From: Caldilineaceae bacterium
Lineage (GTDB): Bacteria; Chloroflexota; Anaerolineae; Caldilineales; Caldilineaceae
Reading direction: 5' to 3'
DNA: 64,000 nt
Assembly (NCBI GenBank): GCA_034437715.1
Contig: DAOTTR010000524.1
Coordinates: 8,987-72,986 of the forward strand
Below the pieces are notes generated by a model. That model saw only the letters and a list, made by a program, of their open reading frames with translations, was not told the origin of the DNA and searched no databases. Made by a program: the position numbers and the translations under genes. How positions within the stretch are numbered: position 1 is the stretch's first letter; the number at the start of each line of letters is the position of its first letter. Below are positions 11,895 to 19,426 of this stretch, one piece after another.

Positions 11895-12665
11895 TCAATG
11901 CCCCAACACATCGACACTTTTAGAGCGGTCATGGTGTTGCAAGCGCCATTCACCAAATTGTTGGAGCAGGGCGCGCGCTTGTTGACAGCGGGTTTGCAGG
12001 CGCGCTTCTTTGCATTGCCAGGTGCCCTGCACTTGGTTGATCACCAGTAGCGAGTCACCACGAATGTCGAGACGCGCCGTGCTAGGATCAGCCCCGGCGT
12101 CGCGCAGGCGTTTGAGGATGGCTTCGAGGGCGGTGATCAGGGTATCATATTCGGCTTCGTTGTTGGTGACACGATCGCCAAAGCGCAGCCGGACTAGTTG
12201 TTGCTGTTCGCCCGGCCAGCGCAGCGCATAGCTGCCATAGCCTTGGCCTGGATTGCCGCGACTGCCGCCATCAAAGATCACGCTGATGGGCCATTCGGGA
12301 GCCTGGCCGGGCAGGGGCGACATGATCTGCGGATCAGCTTCGCGCTTCTCTGTGGTGGGCGCGCCGATGACAATCTTGCCGCTGACCGGTGAACGATAAT
12401 CAGATTTGTCGGGTTTGGATCCAACCTTGGCTGCGACAGTGGGGGTGGGTATAGCCACCGATTGGGCAGTGTTTGACCGCGTGCGGCGATTCGTTGACCC
12501 TTTTGCGCCCAATGCCGGGGCTATCGCCAGGCGATTTTGATCAGAGAAGAGGATATCGGGCACAAAGAGCCCACTGGCATAGAGCCGCCGCTGCAACTGG
12601 CGGCGCTGATCGGGGGTCAACGCTTCAATTTCTTCGATCAGGGCCAAAATCGTAGCACTTGCCAT
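11895..12665 (-). CDS. RNase H-like (type 1 / RVT_3-like) domain protein with a long N-terminal extension
   Basis: The C-terminal ~130 aa carry RNase HI-like acidic motifs (FDGGSRGNPG, NNEAEY, IRGDSLLVI). The N-terminal 125 aa are low-complexity or unknown. Confidence 0.65.
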   Translation of the reverse strand: MASATILALIEEIEALTPDQRRQLQRRLYASGLFVPDILFSDQNRLAIAPALGAKGSTNRRTRSNTAQSVAIPTPTVAAKVGSKPDKSDYRSPVSGKIVIGAPTTEKREADPQIMSPLPGQAPEWPISVIFDGGSRGNPGQGYGSYALRWPGEQQQLVRLRFGDRVTNNEAEYDTLITALEAILKRLRDAGADPSTARLDIRGDSLLVINQVQGTWQCKEARLQTRCQQARALLQQFGEWRLQHHDRSKSVDVLGH

Positions 12666-12698
12666 AGGGGTCTACGTTCTACTTGAATGGATTGAACA

Positions 12699-13598
12699 CT
12701 AGGCCGGTAGCGGCGCAGATTGGCGCTGTTTGCGCTGCGCGGCCCGCGCCCGTTCCCAGAGATAGAGCAGGTTGTTGGCGTGAAATTGCTGCACCAACCC
12801 ACCCAAGGGAATGCGGCTGCGGTCGAAGCGCTCAATATCATATTGCAGCAAGTCATGCTTGGTCGCACCTTCGGCCATCAGGCGATCCACCAGGGCTTCG
12901 ATCTCATTGAGATATTGGACGCTAATGTCGATGCTGCTGGTAACCTCGCCGCGCAACAAAATATCGCCGTGCCCCTGGACAATGCACTCCAGGTTATAGT
13001 CATGCAGGTTGAGCAACGAGCGCTTAAAGGCCTCGATATCGCTAAACGCAGTCGCGATTAAGGGCACTGGCATGAGCAGATCGCTAGCAAAGAGCACCTT
13101 GTCCTCGCGCACATGCACCGCGCACAGATCCGGGCTGGCACCGGGCGAATGAATCAAGTGGACGGTTTTGTCACCCAGGCGCAAGACCAAGCCCTCATTA
13201 AAGACCAGTTTGGGCAGGCGGATCTCCACCTCGCGCAGTTCCGGCGTATACTCTTTGGCCTGCGCCAGCGACTTATAGCCATGTTCGATGATCATCGCGC
13301 GACATAATTCATGCGCCACCAGTTCAGCATCGGGAAAAAAGCACGAACCATAAATATGATCGGCATGGCTGATTGTATTGACCAAATATTTGATGCCTTG
13401 GGGACAGACACGCTGGGCAAAGTCGATAATCTGCTTGGTTTCCGAGGGAAACGGCAACGTGTCGATGAGGATGCCGCCTTCTGCCGTTACCACCAAGCCA
13501 GCATTGACTTCCACATACAATTCACTGGTAAACACCCAAGTGTCATCCGCTACCCTTGTCCGTGTAATGGCCACAGTTCCCCCCATTCCTTCGCCCAA
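12699..13598 (-). CDS. MBL-fold metallo-hydrolase
   Basis: Metallo-beta-lactamase motif region ([12 protein letters not shown]) and later His/Asp positions ([13 protein letters not shown]). Confidence 0.7.
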
Positions 13599-13701: not shown

Positions 13702-15312
13702 TTACGGCCTGAAATCGACTTCTTCATCGCGGTTGTGGCGCGGGCGATGGACGAGGGTTTCAGTGGTCAACGCCATGAGTGCGCCGCTGACGCCGATCTG
13801 CAAGGCGGATTGGAGCACGCGCACCGGGTCCACAATATGCACAGCCATCACATCGACCATCTGCGCGTTCAGCACATCAAAGCCAAAGCCATTGTGCGCG
13901 GCGAGCAGTTGCGCTAGGATCGGGCCCGGTTCGAAACCAGAATTGCGCAGAATCGCTTGCGTCGGGGCCATGAGCGCGCGCCGCATAATCGCAATGGCCG
14001 GCGCTTCGTCCTCGGGCAGTTCGATGCGGTCGAGCGCAGCCAAGCAGCGCAGATAGGCAACCCCACCGCCAGGCGCAACGCCATCTTGCAGTGCCAACCG
14101 CAACACACTGACCGCCTCTTTGGCGCGCGCCTTGAAATAATCGCGCTCACTTTCGGTGGCGCCGCCAATCTCCAGCAGGGCCACCCCCCCCAATAACTTG
14201 CCACTGCGCTCGATCAGGCGGTCGCGGTCGCGGCCCGGTTGCGCTTTGGGCAACAGGCTGCGCAATTCCTGATGGCGCTGACGAATCGCTGCGGGACGCC
14301 CCTTGCCGCCAATAATCGTAAAGCCAGAGCGAATCGCCTGCACCTCGTCGGCCAGCCCCAAATCGGCCAGCGTGACCTTGCTCAGCGAATCGGCCAGGAC
14401 CGCTTGAATCACTCGTCCACCGCACAAAACGGCCAGATCCTGTAGAATGTCACTTTTTTCGGAACCCAACCCCGGCGCCTTAATAGCAAGCGTGGGCAAC
14501 ACCTTGCGCACATGGTTGGTTACCAGCAGATTGAGTGCCTCGCCGGTGACCGAGGGCGCAATCACCACCAGCCCGCGGTCGCCCGCACTGCGCACCAGGT
14601 TGAGAATGGGCAACAGTTGGGCCGTGGCGTTGAGTTGGTAATCGGTAAAGAGCAGATAGGGCTTTTCCAACACCGCTGTGCCCGGTTGATTGGTAAAATT
14701 CGAGGAGACCCAGCCCTGATTCCAGAAGGTGCCTTGAATATAGCGGCGCTCATGAATGCGCGCATAGCTTGTCCGCACATCGATTGAGCCATGTGGGCCC
14801 ACTGTGTCAAAGACTTCTTCGAGCAGCCGCCCCAGCGTTTCATCGCCCGTGATGGTGCGGCCCAAGGCCGCGATCTGTGCAGCCTGCACCAGCGGATGCG
14901 CCTGTGCCGCCAACGCATCTAGCACAACCGGCAAGAGTTTTTCCAGCCCGTGCGCCACGCGCATCAAATTATACCCTGCCGCGGCATGGCGATTGGCTTC
15001 ATTGAGAATTTGGCGGGCGATCACAACGGCGGTGGTGGTGCCGTCACCCACAGCTTCTTCGACGCGCCAGGCAATATGCCGCGCCAAGAAGGCGCCCATT
15101 GTTTCAAAGCGATTGGGCAAGCCCGAAAATCGGCGGGCAATCGTCGCGCCATCGTTGAGAAATTCGGGTGATTTGCGCGGATTATCATTGGCTAACGCGA
15201 CCAATCTGCCCTGTGGACCCAGGGAAACTTCCATCAAATCGCTCAATAGGTTAAAGCCACGGCTCAAGGCCTGGCGGGCGGCAGGTGGAAAAAGTAAACG
15301 TGGCTGCTTCAT
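13702..15312 (-). CDS. divergent group I chaperonin (GroEL/Cpn60) paralog
   Basis: Aligns by eye to GroEL from the N-terminus (AARQALSRGFNLLSDLMEVSLGPQGR, GDGTTTAVVIA, VDPVRVLQSALQ). No GGM tail. No adjacent groES. ATG 15312 was chosen over the track start 15363. Confidence 0.8.
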   Translation of the reverse strand: MKQPRLLFPPAARQALSRGFNLLSDLMEVSLGPQGRLVALANDNPRKSPEFLNDGATIARRFSGLPNRFETMGAFLARHIAWRVEEAVGDGTTTAVVIARQILNEANRHAAAGYNLMRVAHGLEKLLPVVLDALAAQAHPLVQAAQIAALGRTITGDETLGRLLEEVFDTVGPHGSIDVRTSYARIHERRYIQGTFWNQGWVSSNFTNQPGTAVLEKPYLLFTDYQLNATAQLLPILNLVRSAGDRGLVVIAPSVTGEALNLLVTNHVRKVLPTLAIKAPGLGSEKSDILQDLAVLCGGRVIQAVLADSLSKVTLADLGLADEVQAIRSGFTIIGGKGRPAAIRQRHQELRSLLPKAQPGRDRDRLIERSGKLLGGVALLEIGGATESERDYFKARAKEAVSVLRLALQDGVAPGGGVAYLRCLAALDRIELPEDEAPAIAIMRRALMAPTQAILRNSGFEPGPILAQLLAAHNGFGFDVLNAQMVDVMAVHIVDPVRVLQSALQIGVSGALMALTTETLVHRPRHNRDEEVDFRP

Positions 15313-15325
15313 ATTTGTTTTGGCT

Positions 15326-15358
15326 GATAAAAACCGCCTGAGCGCGGCCCAGGCGGTT
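15326..15358 (-). terminator. intrinsic terminator-like hairpin about 15 nt upstream of the GroEL-paralog ATG
   Basis: Minus strand reads AACCGCCTG-N9-CAGGCGGTT followed by TTTTAT. Confidence 0.6.
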
Positions 15359-15390
15359 AGCATACTCGAGTATGATTTTTATAAAAAGGT

Positions 15391-15562
15391 ACTCCGCAGA
15401 AACGTGGGGACAGTGAGTGCGAACCTACGTAAGTAGGTGGGTGCCGATTGGGCGCTTCCGTCTTACCCTCGCGGGCTATCACATCCACGCCACTTGATCC
15501 TGCTCCCGTTTGTGAAATGTTGGCTCGCCCCGTATTCTATCCTTTCACGGAGACTGCAGAGT
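15391..15562 (-). ncRNA. candidate structured RNA (~172 nt, 6S-like rod; could instead be a cis leader)
   Basis: It starts at the predicted TSS of a near-consensus promoter. The 5' ACUCUGCAG pairs with the 3' CUGCGGAGU. Nested CGUG/CACG and GGAUAG/CUGUCC helices follow. A U5 run lies after the closing stem. No ORF. Confidence 0.4.
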
Positions 15563-15568
15563 ATACGT

Positions 15569-15597
15569 AGTATAGCACAGCTTGTTTGCAAAATCAA
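15569..15597 (-). promoter_or_regulatory. sigma-70-type promoter
   Basis: Minus strand -35 TTGATT, 17-nt spacer, -10 TATACT. Predicted TSS near 15562. Confidence 0.45.
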
Positions 15598-15615
15598 AGC
15601 GCCAAACCAGTGATT

Positions 15616-17433
15616 TTATTTCGCGTTTTCCTTTGCCTTGGCAACGCGCAACGCAATATGCAGCTCGGCCAACTGGGCGTCGGTTACGGGGCTGGGTGTG
15701 TCCAACATCAGGTCGGTACCCGCGGCGTTTTTGGGAAAAGCGATCACATCACGAATGCTGGCCGTTTCGGCAAACATGGCGACGAGGCGATCGATGCCCA
15801 GCGCAATGCCGCCATGCGGTGGCGCGCCATACTGAAAAGCTTCGAGCAAGTGACCAAATTGGGCGTCCACTTCGGTTTTTGCCATGCCCAACATGGCAAA
15901 AAGGCGATCTTGCAGATCGCTGCGGTGGATACGAATGCTGCCACCGCCGATCTCCCAGCCGTTGAGCACCACATCATAGGCTTTGGCCAGCACGCTGCCA
16001 GGATCGCTTTCGAGCTTGGCCCAATCGGCGTCCAGCGCGCTGGTAAACGGGTGATGGACGGCGTACCAGCGCCTATCCTCTTCGTTGTACTCCAACAGTG
16101 GAAAGTCTACAACCCAGCAGAAAGAGAGTACTTCATTGTTGATCACTTTGGCGCGGCGCCCCACTTCCAGCCGCAGGTTGTGCAAGCTCTGTGCCACCAC
16201 GGCGGGCTTGTCCGCCACCAGCAAAATCAAATCGCCAGCCTGGGCACCGCTGGTGGCAATCACAGCGCGCAGCGTTGCGGGCGACAGGAATTTGGCAATT
16301 TGACTGCGCAATGCCGCCTCGGCATAATTGCCCGTGGCGTCGGGTGCGCCGGTCACGCCGATCCACGCCAAGCCTTTGGCCCCATATTGCTTGACAAAGT
16401 CGGTCAGTTCGTCGATCTCGCGGCGGGGCAGGCTCGCGCCGCCCGGGTAAATAATGCCCTTGACTTGGCCGCCACCCGCCAGCGCATTCTTAAAGACGGC
16501 AAACTCGCTGTCGGCGACGATCTCGCTTACGTTGAAGAGGGTTAGGCCAAAGCGCAGATCGGGCCGGTCGATGCCATATTTATCCAACGCCTCGGCATAG
16601 GTGATGATCGGGAAAGGCACTGTTTGAATCGGCTTGGCCCCCAACATCTGACACAAATCGATGAGCAGGCCTTCAATCAGCGCACGGATATCGTCGGCCT
16701 CGACAAAGCTCATTTCCAGATCGAGCTGGGTAAATTCCAACTGGCGGTCGGCGCGCAGATCTTCATCGCGGAAACAGCGGGCAATCTGGAAATAGCGTTC
16801 AATGCCAGCCACCATCAACAACTGCTTGAGTTGTTGTGGGCTTTGGGGCAGCGCATAAAACTCGTGGGGGTGTAGGCGGCTGGGAACAATAAAGTCGCGC
16901 GCGCCTTCTGGCGTGCTCTTGAGCAGGATCGGCGTCTCGATTTCCAAGAATTCTTGATCGGAAAGGAATTCGCGGATAAAGCGCACAATGCGGTGGCGCA
17001 AGGTGAGGTTATGCACCATGCGTGGGCGGCGCAAATCAAGATAGCGGTACTTCAAGCGCAGCGCCTCGTCAACCTCTTCGGCAGAATCAGCAATGTAGAA
17101 GGGTGGATTTTTGGAAGGATTGAGAATCACAACGGTGTCGGCAATCACTTCAATATCACCCGTGCTCAGGTTGGCATTTTCCTGGCCGGTGGGGCGCGCT
17201 TGCACCACGCCCTGCACTTGAATCACATATTCGCTGCGCGCCTGCTCGGCAAATTCATGGGCAGCGGCATTGGCCACAGAATCCACCGTCACTTGGGTAA
17301 TGCCAAAGCGATCGCGCAGATCAAGAAAAATCAGCCCTCCATGATCGCGTCGCCGATTAATCCACCCGGCCAAGGTTACGCGCTGCCCCACATGGGTGCG
17401 ATTTAATGCGCCACAACTATGCGTCTTTAACAT
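15616..17433 (-). CDS. aspS: aspartate--tRNA ligase
   Basis: Full-length bacterial AspRS. It has the N-terminal OB fold ([22 protein letters not shown]), class II motifs ([19 protein letters not shown]) and the bacterial insertion domain. Confidence 0.95.
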
Positions 17434-17908: not shown

Positions 17909-18475
17909 ATGGAAAACACGTACCCACCGGTTACGAATACCCATCATTTGGCGAGTGCGACTGATTCGGCTGACAAGATAGAACGGATTCGCGATCTACT
18001 CTTTGGTCCCCAAATGCGTGACTATACACAACGCATTGCTGCCATCCATCAAGAGTTGCGTACGCTTACCCAAGAGACAGCGCGACTCGCTATGGTGATC
18101 CAAGAGCAGGAAGATAAATTTACCGGATTACTGCGCCAAGAGATTGATCGCCTGGCCATGCAACTACAAGATCAGGGCAAGCGCGCTCAACAGCAGTTGC
18201 AACAAGTAGACTACCGCTTAACCGAACAGTGGAAAGCGCTAGATCAAAGCCATACCCAAAATCTCAATGAGGTGGCGCAGGGCCTTGTGCGCACAGAACA
18301 GATCCTACGCACAGAATTGCATGATCTGTCACAAGAACTTAACCAGCGCAAAGTGGACCGCCCAACACTTGGCGATCTGCTGATCGATCTGGGGCAAAGC
18401 CTAAAATCTACAGCGCCGCCCCCCTTGCCAGTGGAGGAAGATCTGCTGGATCAATTGAGCCAAGCGCTGGCATAA
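17909..18475 (+). CDS. coiled-coil protein with N-terminal RDLLFG motif
   Basis: 188 aa and Q/L/E-rich with heptad character. The motif IRDLLFG is shared with the next ORF. Confidence 0.6.
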   Translation: MENTYPPVTNTHHLASATDSADKIERIRDLLFGPQMRDYTQRIAAIHQELRTLTQETARLAMVIQEQEDKFTGLLRQEIDRLAMQLQDQGKRAQQQLQQVDYRLTEQWKALDQSHTQNLNEVAQGLVRTEQILRTELHDLSQELNQRKVDRPTLGDLLIDLGQSLKSTAPPPLPVEEDLLDQLSQALA

Positions 18476-18490
18476 CCGAGGATTTGATCA

Positions 18491-19426
18491 GTGCCCACCC
18501 ACCCAGTTGCCCAGCAGAATGATCCGAGCCCAGCCCAACCGGACTTTGCCGCGCCAAGCGCGGCCGCGGTCCCGATCGTGCTCGACATGCCTGGGCAAGC
18601 AAACAGTGAAGATGCCACCATGGAACTCCTGCGCGACTTGCTCTTTGGCGACTATCGCCAGCAAGTGGCGCGGATGCGGGCGGAGGTCAACGAATTACAA
18701 TCGTTGCTCGACGAACTTGAAGTGCAGATCAACAACAAAGAAGCGTTGGTGGCGACGATCACGCCGGTGATTGCTTCGGCGATCCGCACCAACATTCGCG
18801 ATTCGCAGAGTGAAATGGTGGACGCGCTCTATCCCATTCTGGGGAAATTGGTGCAGCGTTCGGTCACCGAGTCCATGCGTGAGCTGGCCCAGCGGATTGA
18901 TCGGCAGATGCGCAGAACGCTTAACATGAAAGATCTGCTACGCCGCCTGCTCGGTCGTCTACAGGGGCTTTCCGCCGCCGAAATGGCCATGCGCGAGGCC
19001 TTGCCCTTTCAGGTACACAACCTGTTTTTGATTCACCGCGAGAGCAGTCTGTTGCTGCTACACACGGCCCATGCCGCACAAGAAAACACTGATTCGGATC
19101 TGATCAGCAGTATGCTGAGTGCGATTCGCGATTTTACCGAAGATGCCTTGGGGCGCAGCGAAAAAGAAGAACTCAATCAGATTCAATATGGCGGCAAAAG
19201 TATTATCATTGAAGTGGCACATCTTGTCTATCTGGCGGCCACGATTGACGGTATTGAGCCACAAGGTTTTCGCGAGCAGATGCGCCAGACCATGATCGCG
19301 ATTGAGCATCAACATGCCAATCGGTTGCACAAATATGATGGCAATGCTGCGCCCTTTGCGCCGTCGGCAATGACGCTGGCCGCTTTGTTACGCTATGCAG
19401 AAGGACAACATGCCGCGAATCATTAA
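18491..19426 (+). CDS. coiled-coil protein with RDLLFG motif and a Roadblock/LC7-like C-terminal domain (tentative)
   Basis: GTG start with SD GAGGA 8 nt upstream. The C-terminal ~110 aa (VHNLFLIHRESSLLLLH ... SIIIEVAHLVYLAATIDG) have the alternating beta/alpha pattern of Roadblock domains. Confidence 0.6.
   Translation: MPTHPVAQQNDPSPAQPDFAAPSAAAVPIVLDMPGQANSEDATMELLRDLLFGDYRQQVARMRAEVNELQSLLDELEVQINNKEALVATITPVIASAIRTNIRDSQSEMVDALYPILGKLVQRSVTESMRELAQRIDRQMRRTLNMKDLLRRLLGRLQGLSAAEMAMREALPFQVHNLFLIHRESSLLLLHTAHAAQENTDSDLISSMLSAIRDFTEDALGRSEKEELNQIQYGGKSIIIEVAHLVYLAATIDGIEPQGFREQMRQTMIAIEHQHANRLHKYDGNAAPFAPSAMTLAALLRYAEGQHAANH

What the first reader, a model, noticed from the sequence alone, without database searches (positions are those of the whole stretch)
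15326..15597. Promoter, ~172-nt rod-like RNA and intrinsic terminator wedged between aspS and an SD-less GroEL paralog
On the minus strand a near-consensus promoter (TTGATT-17 nt-TATACT) predicts a TSS at about 15562. The next 172 nt contain no ORF. They start and end with a complementary 9-mer (ACUCUGCAG / CUGCGGAGU), inside which lie nested CGUG/CACG and GGAUAG/CUGUCC helices. This terminal-stem rod architecture is reminiscent of 6S RNA. Downstream come a U5 run, a perfect 14-bp palindrome CATACTCGAGTATG (15361-15374), and a GC hairpin plus U-run (15358-15326). That hairpin ends about 15 nt before the ATG of the GroEL paralog. The GroEL paralog, unlike most genes here, has no Shine-Dalgarno sequence. 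This is either an independent sRNA (6S-like) or a long attenuator/leader that controls the chaperonin paralog by read-through.
Basis: partly seen in the sequence, partly recalled or inferred. Interest (0 to 1): 0.65.

Follow-up and report, generated by a model that had tools for sequence, protein, structure and literature searches.

The report
6S RNA gene of a Caldilineaceae bacterium
The promoter, rod-shaped RNA and terminator between aspS and the GroEL paralog are an ordinary but unannotated 6S RNA gene (the small RNA that mimics an open promoter and sequesters RNA polymerase) in a Chloroflexota bacterium; it scores just under Rfam's cut-off.

Summary
On the minus strand there is a promoter (TTGATT-17-TGcTATACT, 15597-15569), a ~176-nt rod-like RNA (about 15562-15387), a spacer holding a 14-bp palindrome, and a strong hairpin plus U-run (15358-15326) ending 16 nt before the ATG (15312) of a divergent GroEL paralog. 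The RNA is 6S RNA (ssrS). It matches Rfam RF00013 over the full model at 45.5 bits (cut-off 46.4, E 5e-8). Orthologues in two related Caldilineaceae genomes pass the cut-off (57.6 and 46.9 bits). A model built only from the Caldilineaceae copies finds E. coli's annotated ssrS. The fold has the closing stem, 5' central bubble, 3'-bubble hairpin and apical stem of 6S RNA, and covariation supports it (42 of 55 pairs). Near-identical RNA occurs in 8 of 8 metatranscriptomes checked, only inside the predicted body. It is not a dedicated GroEL leader. One relative has aspS-6S-terminator with no GroEL paralog, and ten GroEL-paralog loci have no 6S. In this subclade, however, the paralog has no promoter of its own and sits 7-17 nt behind the conserved 6S terminator. 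Its expression by read-through is therefore plausible but untested. This is a new member of a known kind, of low interest.

The parts
15569..15597 (-). sigma-70/sigma-A-type promoter of ssrS: -35 TTGATT (15597-15592), 17-nt spacer, extended -10 TGcTATACT (15577-15569)
   Evidence: The -35 TTG and the -10 TATA(C/A/G)T hexamer lie at the same distance from the RNA in nine orthologous loci, while the rest of the upstream sequence diverges.
15387..15562 (-). 6S RNA (ssrS) body, about 176 nt. The 5' end is predicted at A15562. The 3' end is near the end of the closing stem and its exact position is unknown.
   Evidence: Rfam RF00013 over 15565-15387, 45.5 bits, model positions 1-187 of 187. R1 gives 208.9 bits over 15567-15385. 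The block of conservation starts at CTCTGCAG and ends at CTGCGGAGT. Metatranscriptome contigs lie only within 15381-15557.
15508..15521 (-). 5' central bubble AACAUUUCACAAAC. C15519 aligns with E. coli U44, the pRNA start, followed by A15518. Inferred pRNA: 5'-GUUGGCUCGCCCCG.
   Evidence: Unpaired in the consensus folds. Alignment of E. coli ssrS to model R1. U44 as the pRNA start in E. coli: PMC8876501. GG at pRNA positions 4/5 and an A next to the start: PMC8414754. The pRNA itself is inferred, not observed.
15426..15438 (-). 3' central bubble with a small hairpin (ACC UAC UUAC GUA). It could extend to 6 bp (ACCUAC/GUAGGU) if helix P2 is unwound.
   Evidence: There is a compensatory A-U to G-C change in seven of nine orthologues and in an RNA-derived contig of run X32 (15434 and 15427).
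15439..15507 (-). Apical (terminal) stem with internal loops and the terminal loop GCGA
   Evidence: Compensatory changes occur at four of its pairs within the clade.
15361..15374 (-). 14-bp perfect palindrome CATACTCGAGTATG in the spacer between the 6S body and the terminator. Probably not functional.
   Evidence: It folds only weakly (-2.6 kcal/mol). It is absent from all orthologous spacers, which vary from about 20 to 110 nt.
15326..15358 (-). Intrinsic terminator: 12-bp G+C-rich hairpin (15358-15331) plus UUUUUAUC
   Evidence: -22.2 kcal/mol, z = -3.5. The same stem is conserved in L001, L003, L135, L136, L138 and L131 with variable loops. One pair changes A-U to G-C in L136, and the window has the G-U intermediate.
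13702..15312 (-). Divergent GroEL-family paralog (536 aa). Its ATG lies 16 nt after the terminator U-run, with no SD and no own promoter.
   Evidence: Pfam PF00118. NCBIfam TIGR02348 gives 382 bits against a cut-off of 582. Homologues of 536 aa occur in Caldilineaceae.
15616..17433 (-). aspS (aspartyl-tRNA synthetase). Its stop codon lies 18 nt upstream of the ssrS -35 box.
   Evidence: Pfam tRNA-synt_2, GAD and tRNA_anti-codon. The aspS-6S linkage is conserved in L001, L003, L131, L135, L136 and L138.

Best explanation
This is the ssrS gene of a Caldilineaceae (Chloroflexota) bacterium, encoding 6S RNA.

Shown or read directly from the sequence:
- A housekeeping-type promoter should start transcription at about 15562.
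- The ~176-nt transcript folds into the 6S rod: a closing stem, a large central bubble with a small hairpin on its 3' side, and an apical stem.
- Transcription should end at the conserved intrinsic terminator at 15358-15326. The mature RNA is probably trimmed back towards the closing stem.

Inferred by homology with E. coli and B. subtilis 6S RNA:
- The rod mimics an open promoter and binds the RNA polymerase holoenzyme carrying the primary sigma factor, damping housekeeping transcription in slow growth.
- When nucleotides return, the polymerase copies a short product RNA from the bubble, predicted to start opposite C15519 (5'-GUUGGCUCG...).
- That product unwinds helix P2, lets the 3'-bubble hairpin extend, and releases the enzyme.

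A secondary inference, held with about even odds: in this subclade the GroEL paralog immediately downstream has no promoter of its own and is transcribed by read-through of the 6S terminator. This resembles the way E. coli fau/ygfA is fed from ssrS.
For: Family match:
- Full-length match to Rfam 6S at 45.5 bits, E 4.8e-8 for the 501-nt scan.
- Orthologues L005 (57.6 bits) and L003 (46.9 bits) exceed the gathering score of 46.4.
- The triad GAGCCAA...GGGAGC...GGCACCCACCT found in the window RNA hits at least 120 metagenome contigs. Of 19 tested, 18 are Rfam 6S at 61-122 bits.
- Model R1, built from five Caldilineaceae copies only, finds a full-length match in all 100 sources searched.
- R1 also finds the annotated E. 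coli ssrS at 282-469 (annotation 284-466), E 6.5e-7.

Structure:
- The consensus fold is the canonical 6S architecture described in PMC8414754 and PMC8876501.
- Covariation on 79 distinct sequences: 90.9% of cells paired, 42 of 55 pairs with changes on both sides, score 0.421 against at most 0.062 for slid partners, and 0 of 500 shuffles as high.
- Within the clade, on an independent MAFFT alignment: 53 pairs, 6 of them compensatory, almost none broken.

Gene organisation:
- The conservation block coincides with the RNA body. The promoter hexamers and the terminator stem are conserved around it while the flanks diverge.
- L131 has aspS-6S-terminator followed by about 230 nt carrying a separate promoter-like site, with no GroEL paralog.

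Expression:
- In 8 of 8 metatranscriptomes, contigs at least 95% identical lie only within 15381-15557. Several abut sequencing adapters, and none runs into the promoter side.
Against: - The window copy itself is 0.9 bit below Rfam's gathering score and was missed by the default scan. L001 and L131 are also below it.
- The RNA evidence comes from assembled contigs of near-identical relatives in other samples, not from this organism. It does not map transcript ends.
- No binding to RNA polymerase and no product RNA has been observed.
- Alignment A3 is fitted to the model's structure, which inflates the pairing counts somewhat.
- The consensus terminator scan did not list the hairpin.
Confidence: 0.93

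Rival explanations
1. The element has a dual role. It is a 6S RNA gene, and its leaky terminator is also the only route by which the GroEL paralog is transcribed. Chaperonin-paralog expression would then be coupled to the very strong, growth-phase-responsive 6S promoter. This is compatible with the best explanation and extends it.
For: - In the window, L001, L003, L135, L136 and L138 the conserved terminator hairpin ends only 7-17 nt before the paralog's ATG. There is no SD and no room for a promoter.
- No promoter-like site was found between the 6S body and the ATG.
- In relatives whose paralog is not behind 6S (L002, L004, L006, L008, L012) it has its own GGTATAAT-type -10 about 55-65 nt upstream. 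L002, L004, L008 and L012 also show an SD-like motif.
- The paralog is under purifying selection (92% amino-acid identity between the window and L001), so it must be expressed somehow.
- Precedent from established knowledge: E. coli ssrS is co-transcribed with the downstream fau/ygfA. One search shows the two genes adjacent.
Against: - The hairpin is strong (-22 kcal/mol with U5), so read-through should be low.
- No RNA run holding the paralog could be found, so nothing has been observed.
- The longer spacers of L135, L136 and L005 could hide weak promoters upstream of the hairpin.
- Chloroflexota promoters may not all fit the sigma-70 consensus used in the scan.
Confidence: 0.5
2. The element is a dedicated cis-regulatory leader or attenuator of the GroEL paralog (for example a stress-sensing RNA), not a trans-acting 6S RNA.
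For: It lies directly upstream of the paralog on the same strand, with a terminator between them. That arrangement is kept in eight loci.
Against: - It matches the 6S family in sequence and structure.
- It occurs without the paralog in L131.
- Ten paralog loci lack it.
- The spacer between the RNA and the terminator varies from about 20 to 110 nt and is not conserved. A structured attenuator would not tolerate that.
- No alternative anti-terminator pairing was seen in the fold.
Confidence: 0.03
3. The region encodes a small protein from one of the two mechanical ORFs (15463-15597, 44 aa, TTG start; or 15357-15488, 43 aa, GTG start).
For: The ORFs exist mechanically.
Against: - One ORF starts inside the -35 box.
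- There are no ATG starts and no SD.
- Orthologues carry 1-2-nt indels in loops, and their substitutions are paired across helices rather than at third codon positions.
Confidence: 0.01

Closest known systems
6S RNA / SsrS (Rfam RF00013); E. coli ssrS
   Same: - Similar size: about 176-180 nt against 183 nt.
- Rod shape with a closing stem, central bubble and apical stem.
- Conserved GAGCC...AUUUCA bubble start and GGCACCCACCU on the 3' side.
- Own housekeeping-type promoter.
- A protein gene follows immediately downstream on the same strand.
- The E. coli gene is found by the Caldilineaceae-only model.
   Different: - Sequence is divergent enough to score 45.5 bits, 0.9 bit below the family cut-off.
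- An intrinsic terminator lies about 30 nt beyond the closing stem.
- The genomic context is aspS / GroEL paralog instead of zapA / fau.
- A 3-bp hairpin is already present in the 3' bubble of the free RNA, whereas per PMC8876501 the E. coli 3' bubble is unstructured until a product RNA is made.
Bacillus subtilis 6S-1 RNA (bsrA type)
   Same: A short hairpin is preformed in the 3' central bubble opposite an open 5' bubble (described for 6S-1 in PMC8876501 and for lactic acid bacteria in PMC8414754). The product-RNA start is predicted on a C followed by an A.
   Different: - The inferred product RNA has GG at positions 4/5, as in Gram-negative 6S RNAs, rather than 5/6 (PMC8414754).
- No second 6S paralog was seen in the window.
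- Formation of a 'central bubble collapse helix' was not examined.
Ms1 RNA of Actinobacteria
   Same: It is a structured, 6S-like, RNA polymerase-binding sRNA (PMC9130861).
   Different: Ms1 binds core polymerase and is a separate family. The window RNA matches the 6S model over its full length, and no Ms1 hit was returned.

Membership tests
6S RNA (Rfam RF00013) | Covariance-model score at or above the curated gathering score (46.4 bits) | tested here: inconclusive
   The window copy scores 45.5 bits, full length, E 4.8e-8: 0.9 bit short, so the default scan gave no hit. Clear orthologues L005 (57.6) and L003 (46.9) pass. L001 (43.9) and L131 do not.
6S RNA (Rfam RF00013) | Rod-like fold of about 180 nt: closing stem with small bulges, large central bubble, apical stem, and in many lineages a hairpin in the 3' bubble (PMC8414754) | tested here: met
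   MFE and consensus folds. The body is about 176 nt.
6S RNA (Rfam RF00013) | Helices supported by covariation across homologues | tested here: met
   42 of 55 pairs have changes on both sides and 90.9% of cells are paired. The score is 0.421 against at most 0.062 for slid controls. Within the clade, 6 pairs are compensatory on a MAFFT alignment. Caveat: A3 is fitted to the model.
6S RNA (Rfam RF00013) | Conserved sequence around the central bubble, shared with accepted members | tested here: met
   The pattern GAGCCAA..GGGAGC..GGCACCCACCT retrieves contigs of which 18 of 19 tested pass the Rfam 6S cut-off. The reciprocal hit to the annotated E. coli ssrS is.
6S RNA (Rfam RF00013) | Expressed as a discrete, abundant small RNA | tested here: inconclusive
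   Near-identical RNA-derived contigs in 8 of 8 metatranscriptomes are confined to the predicted body. They come from relatives and are assembled, so they give no end mapping or abundance for this organism.
6S RNA (Rfam RF00013) | Binds the RNA polymerase holoenzyme with the primary sigma factor and templates product RNA from the bubble | not testable with these tools
   The only support is a homology-based prediction of the start (C15519 aligns with E. coli U44; and PMC8876501).
Transcription attenuator / leader of the downstream gene | Obligate linkage to the regulated gene, plus mutually exclusive terminator and anti-terminator structures | tested here: not met
   The RNA is present without the GroEL paralog in L131, and the paralog is present without the RNA in ten loci. 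The spacer to the terminator is variable and unconserved. No competing pairing appears in the fold.

The most novel reading that the evidence does not exclude
In one Caldilineaceae subclade a divergent GroEL paralog has lost its own promoter and Shine-Dalgarno sequence and is expressed only through read-through of the 6S RNA terminator. A chaperonin would then be wired to the promoter of the global polymerase-sequestering RNA, and so to growth-phase signals.
Probability: 0.45. Interest if true: 0.35.

Novelty: new member of a known kind. Interest (0 to 1): 0.18.

Why it matters
There are three mainly practical points.
- 6S RNA genes of Caldilineaceae sit right at Rfam's gathering score, so default annotation misses some of them. 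The window, L001 and L131 fall below it; L003 and L005 fall above. The nine-sequence clade alignment made here could seed a better model.
- The locus shows the aspS-ssrS synteny that is useful for finding the gene in related MAGs.
- The promoter-less, SD-less GroEL paralog directly behind the 6S terminator is a small, testable case of a protein gene depending on read-through from an sRNA gene.

None of this changes what is known about how 6S RNA works.

Tried and rejected
- The default Rfam scan of the whole window gave no hit. Only the E-value scan of the local region showed the 6S match.
- nhmmer with the window RNA found only the closest orthologues, so a covariance model was needed to reach further.
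- 6S was looked for next to the GroEL paralog in ten further genomes with Rfam and with the clade model. None was found, so the linkage is restricted to a subclade.
- RNA runs holding the GroEL paralog were searched for to test read-through. None was listed.
- A separate promoter between the 6S body and the paralog ATG was looked for. The scan lists none. By eye there are only poor matches (TTTTTA-17-TATGCT), and they are not conserved in L001.
- The palindrome CATACTCGAGTATG was considered as an operator, for example a CIRCE/HrcA-like site, because of the GAGTATGCTAA half. It was rejected. The spacing and left half do not fit the CIRCE consensus as I recall it, and the palindrome is absent from every orthologue, including L001 at 92% GroEL identity.
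- Small-protein coding was considered and rejected.

Full report
**What is in the sequence.**
Everything below is on the minus strand, downstream of the aspS stop codon (aspS 15616-17433; Pfam).
- A -35 TTGATT (15597-15592), a 17-nt spacer and an extended -10 TGcTATACT (15577-15569). The promoter scan lists the site.
- A predicted start at A15562.
- A body of about 176 nt whose ends, ACUCUGCAG and CUGCGGAGU, pair as 9 bp with one G-U. CGUG/CACG and GGAUAG/CUGUCC are nested inside.
- A U5 run (15387-15383).
- The perfect 14-bp palindrome CATACTCGAGTATG (15374-15361).
- A 12-bp G+C-rich hairpin (15358-15331) followed by UUUUUAUC.
- Sixteen bases later, the ATG (15312) of a 536-aa GroEL-family protein (13702-15312).

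The MFE fold of 15562-15326 is a rod plus the terminator hairpin (-89.3 kcal/mol, z = -3.6). The body alone gives z = -2.8. The terminator alone gives -22.2 kcal/mol, z = -3.5.

Two details are overstated. Two mechanical 43-44-aa GTG/TTG ORFs do overlap the region. And only about half of the window's genes show an SD-like motif in a crude count, so an SD-less start is not exceptional here.

**Identity.**
The default Rfam scan of the window returns nothing. An E-value scan of 15200-15700 gives one hit: 6S RNA (RF00013) on the minus strand at 15565-15387. It covers model positions 1-187 of 187 at 45.5 bits against a gathering score of 46.4, with E = 4.8e-8. The element is thus a full-length 6S match that misses the curated cut-off by 0.9 bit.

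**Organism and orthologues.**
The GroEL paralog's closest homologues are from Caldilineaceae (Chloroflexota) MAGs, nearly all 536 aa long. Thirteen genome loci encoding the paralog were fetched.
- Three of them (L001, L003, L005) carry the same RNA just upstream (nhmmer E 1e-40 to 1e-71).
- Rfam scores these at 43.9, 46.9 and 57.6 bits, so two pass the 6S gathering score.
- Four more loci reached through homologous proteins (L135-L138) also carry it (189-205 bits with the clade model).
- A metagenome contig (L131) carries it too.

In alignments the conserved block begins exactly at CTCTGCAG and ends at CTGCGGAGT. Upstream, only the -35 TTG and the -10 TATA(C/A/G)T are kept, at a fixed distance. 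Downstream, the spacer is free to vary, but the terminator stem is kept.

**Link to accepted 6S RNAs.**
- The window RNA carries the triad GAGCCAA...GGGAGC...GGCACCCACCT.
- Scanning metagenome contigs for this pattern hit at least 120 contigs from many habitats.
- Of 19 of these taken without regard to content, 18 are called 6S by Rfam at 61-122 bits.
- A covariance model built only from five Caldilineaceae copies (R1) finds one full-length match in each of the 100 sources searched, and only one in the window.
- R1 also finds E. coli K-12's annotated ssrS at 282-469 (annotation 284-466) with E = 6.5e-7.

**Structure and covariation.**
The RNAalifold consensus of the clade has four parts:
- a closing stem interrupted by small loops;
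- an open 14-nt 5' central bubble (15521-15508);
- an apical stem with internal loops (15507-15439);
- a small hairpin in the 3' bubble (15438-15426).

This is the canonical architecture described for 6S RNAs in PMC8414754 and PMC8876501.

| Measure | Clade alignment (MAFFT) | Broad alignment A3, 79 distinct sequences |
|---|---|---|
| Pairs in the structure | 53 | 55 |
| Pairs with changes on both sides | 6 | 42 |
| Cells paired | almost none broken | 90.9% (shuffles 71.1%) |
| Covariation score | - | 0.421 |
| Controls | - | slid partners at most 0.062; 0 of 500 shuffles as high |

A3 is fitted to the model, which favours pairing, but the gap to the slid controls is large.

**Expression.**
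Sampled 31-mers of 15380-15570 are present in metatranscriptomes from wastewater, estuary, soil, groundwater and rhizosphere. The flanking DNA is found in full only in microbial-mat metagenomes.

In eight of eight RNA runs laid on the window, contigs at least 95% identical lie only within 15381-15557.
- Several abut sequencing adapters, so the fragments were short.
- None continues into the promoter side.
- One (X26) continues 33 nt past the closing stem into a different, U-rich flank, as expected for a relative's 3' extension.
- An X32 contig carries the same A-U to G-C double change in the 3'-bubble hairpin (15434/15427) that is seen in the genomic orthologues.

This shows that close relatives transcribe the RNA. 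It does not map ends in this organism.

**Mechanism (inferred by homology).**
In the R1 alignment, E. coli U44 aligns with C15519, which is followed by A15518. U44 is the product-RNA start site in E. coli (PMC8876501). The predicted product RNA is 5'-GUUGGCUCGCCCCG. It has GG at positions 4/5 and an adenine next to the start, the hallmarks noted in PMC8414754. Pairing of this product with CGGGGCGAGCCAAC would free GGUUCG. The 3'-bubble hairpin could then grow from 3 to 6 bp (ACCUAC/GUAGGU), analogous to the release rearrangements described in PMC8876501. None of this has been observed here.

**Leader hypothesis and the GroEL paralog.**
The RNA is not a dedicated leader.
- L131 has aspS-6S-terminator, then about 230 nt with a separate promoter-like site (TGcTAGACT), then the MBL-fold gene. 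In the window that gene follows the GroEL paralog. L131 has no paralog at all.
- Ten paralog loci have no 6S within their flanks by Rfam or by R1.
- In five of those ten (L002, L004, L006, L008, L012) the paralog has its own GGTATAAT-type -10 about 55-65 nt upstream, and in L002, L004, L008 and L012 also an SD-like motif.

The picture differs in the window's subclade (window, L001, L003, L135, L136, L138).
- The conserved hairpin ACCGCCTG(A/G)GC-loop-GC(T/C)CAGGCGG-U4-5 ends only 7-17 nt before the ATG.
- One of its pairs changes A-U to G-C in L136.
- There is no SD and no room for a promoter.

The simplest reading is that paralog mRNA arises by read-through of the 6S terminator, as fau/ygfA is fed from ssrS in E. 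coli (established knowledge; adjacency shown). No RNA run holding the paralog could be found, so this remains an inference at roughly even odds.

The palindrome at 15374-15361 is absent from every orthologue and folds weakly. I regard it as incidental.

**Verdict.**
This is a 6S RNA gene (confidence 0.93). 6S RNAs were already known to occur in Chloroflexi (Wehner et al. 2014, as cited in PMC7726162), so this is a new, unannotated member of a well-known family rather than a new kind of element. The only mildly novel aspect is the promoter-less GroEL paralog behind its terminator.

Noticed in passing
window 13702-15312 (-): The GroEL-like protein is a divergent paralog. It scores 382 bits on the GroEL equivalog model TIGR02348 (cut-off 582) and passes only one subfamily model. 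It is conserved at 58-96% identity across many Caldilineaceae. No GroES-like gene was seen beside it in the stretch examined.
   Followed up: partly
window 11895-13598 (-); L001, L131, L135-L137: A metallo-beta-lactamase-fold protein (299 aa) and an RNase H-like protein with a roughly 125-aa N-terminal extension (256 aa, RVT_3/RNase_H) follow the GroEL paralog. The pair stays together in relatives, including L131, where the paralog is missing.
   Followed up: partly
window 15380-15570, RNA runs X25-X32: The 6S body is 95-100% identical in metatranscriptomes labelled wastewater, estuary, gut, soil, groundwater and rhizosphere, while the flanks are found only in microbial-mat metagenomes. One 59-nt contig in X28 has depth 239. 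The RNA evolves much more slowly than its neighbours: aspS is 95% and the paralog 92% identical in amino acids in L001, where the RNA has about 4 changes.
   Followed up: partly
L003 414-558: A long hairpin-like element upstream of aspS in the 14-Mb Caldilineaceae contig gives weak microRNA-family and Ms_IGR-5 hits on both strands, all far below their gathering scores. It is probably a plain palindromic hairpin.
   Followed up: no
L005 2840-3001: In L005 the 6S-to-paralog spacer is 160 nt, lacks the conserved ACCGCCTGAGC terminator, and instead has G-rich/C-rich repeats and a 9-bp hairpin (GCTGCTGTT/AACAGCAGC) without a U-run. aspS is not upstream there.
   Followed up: no
window 17909-19426 (+): Two adjacent ORFs (188 aa and 311 aa), divergent from aspS, have no Pfam match.
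   Followed up: no
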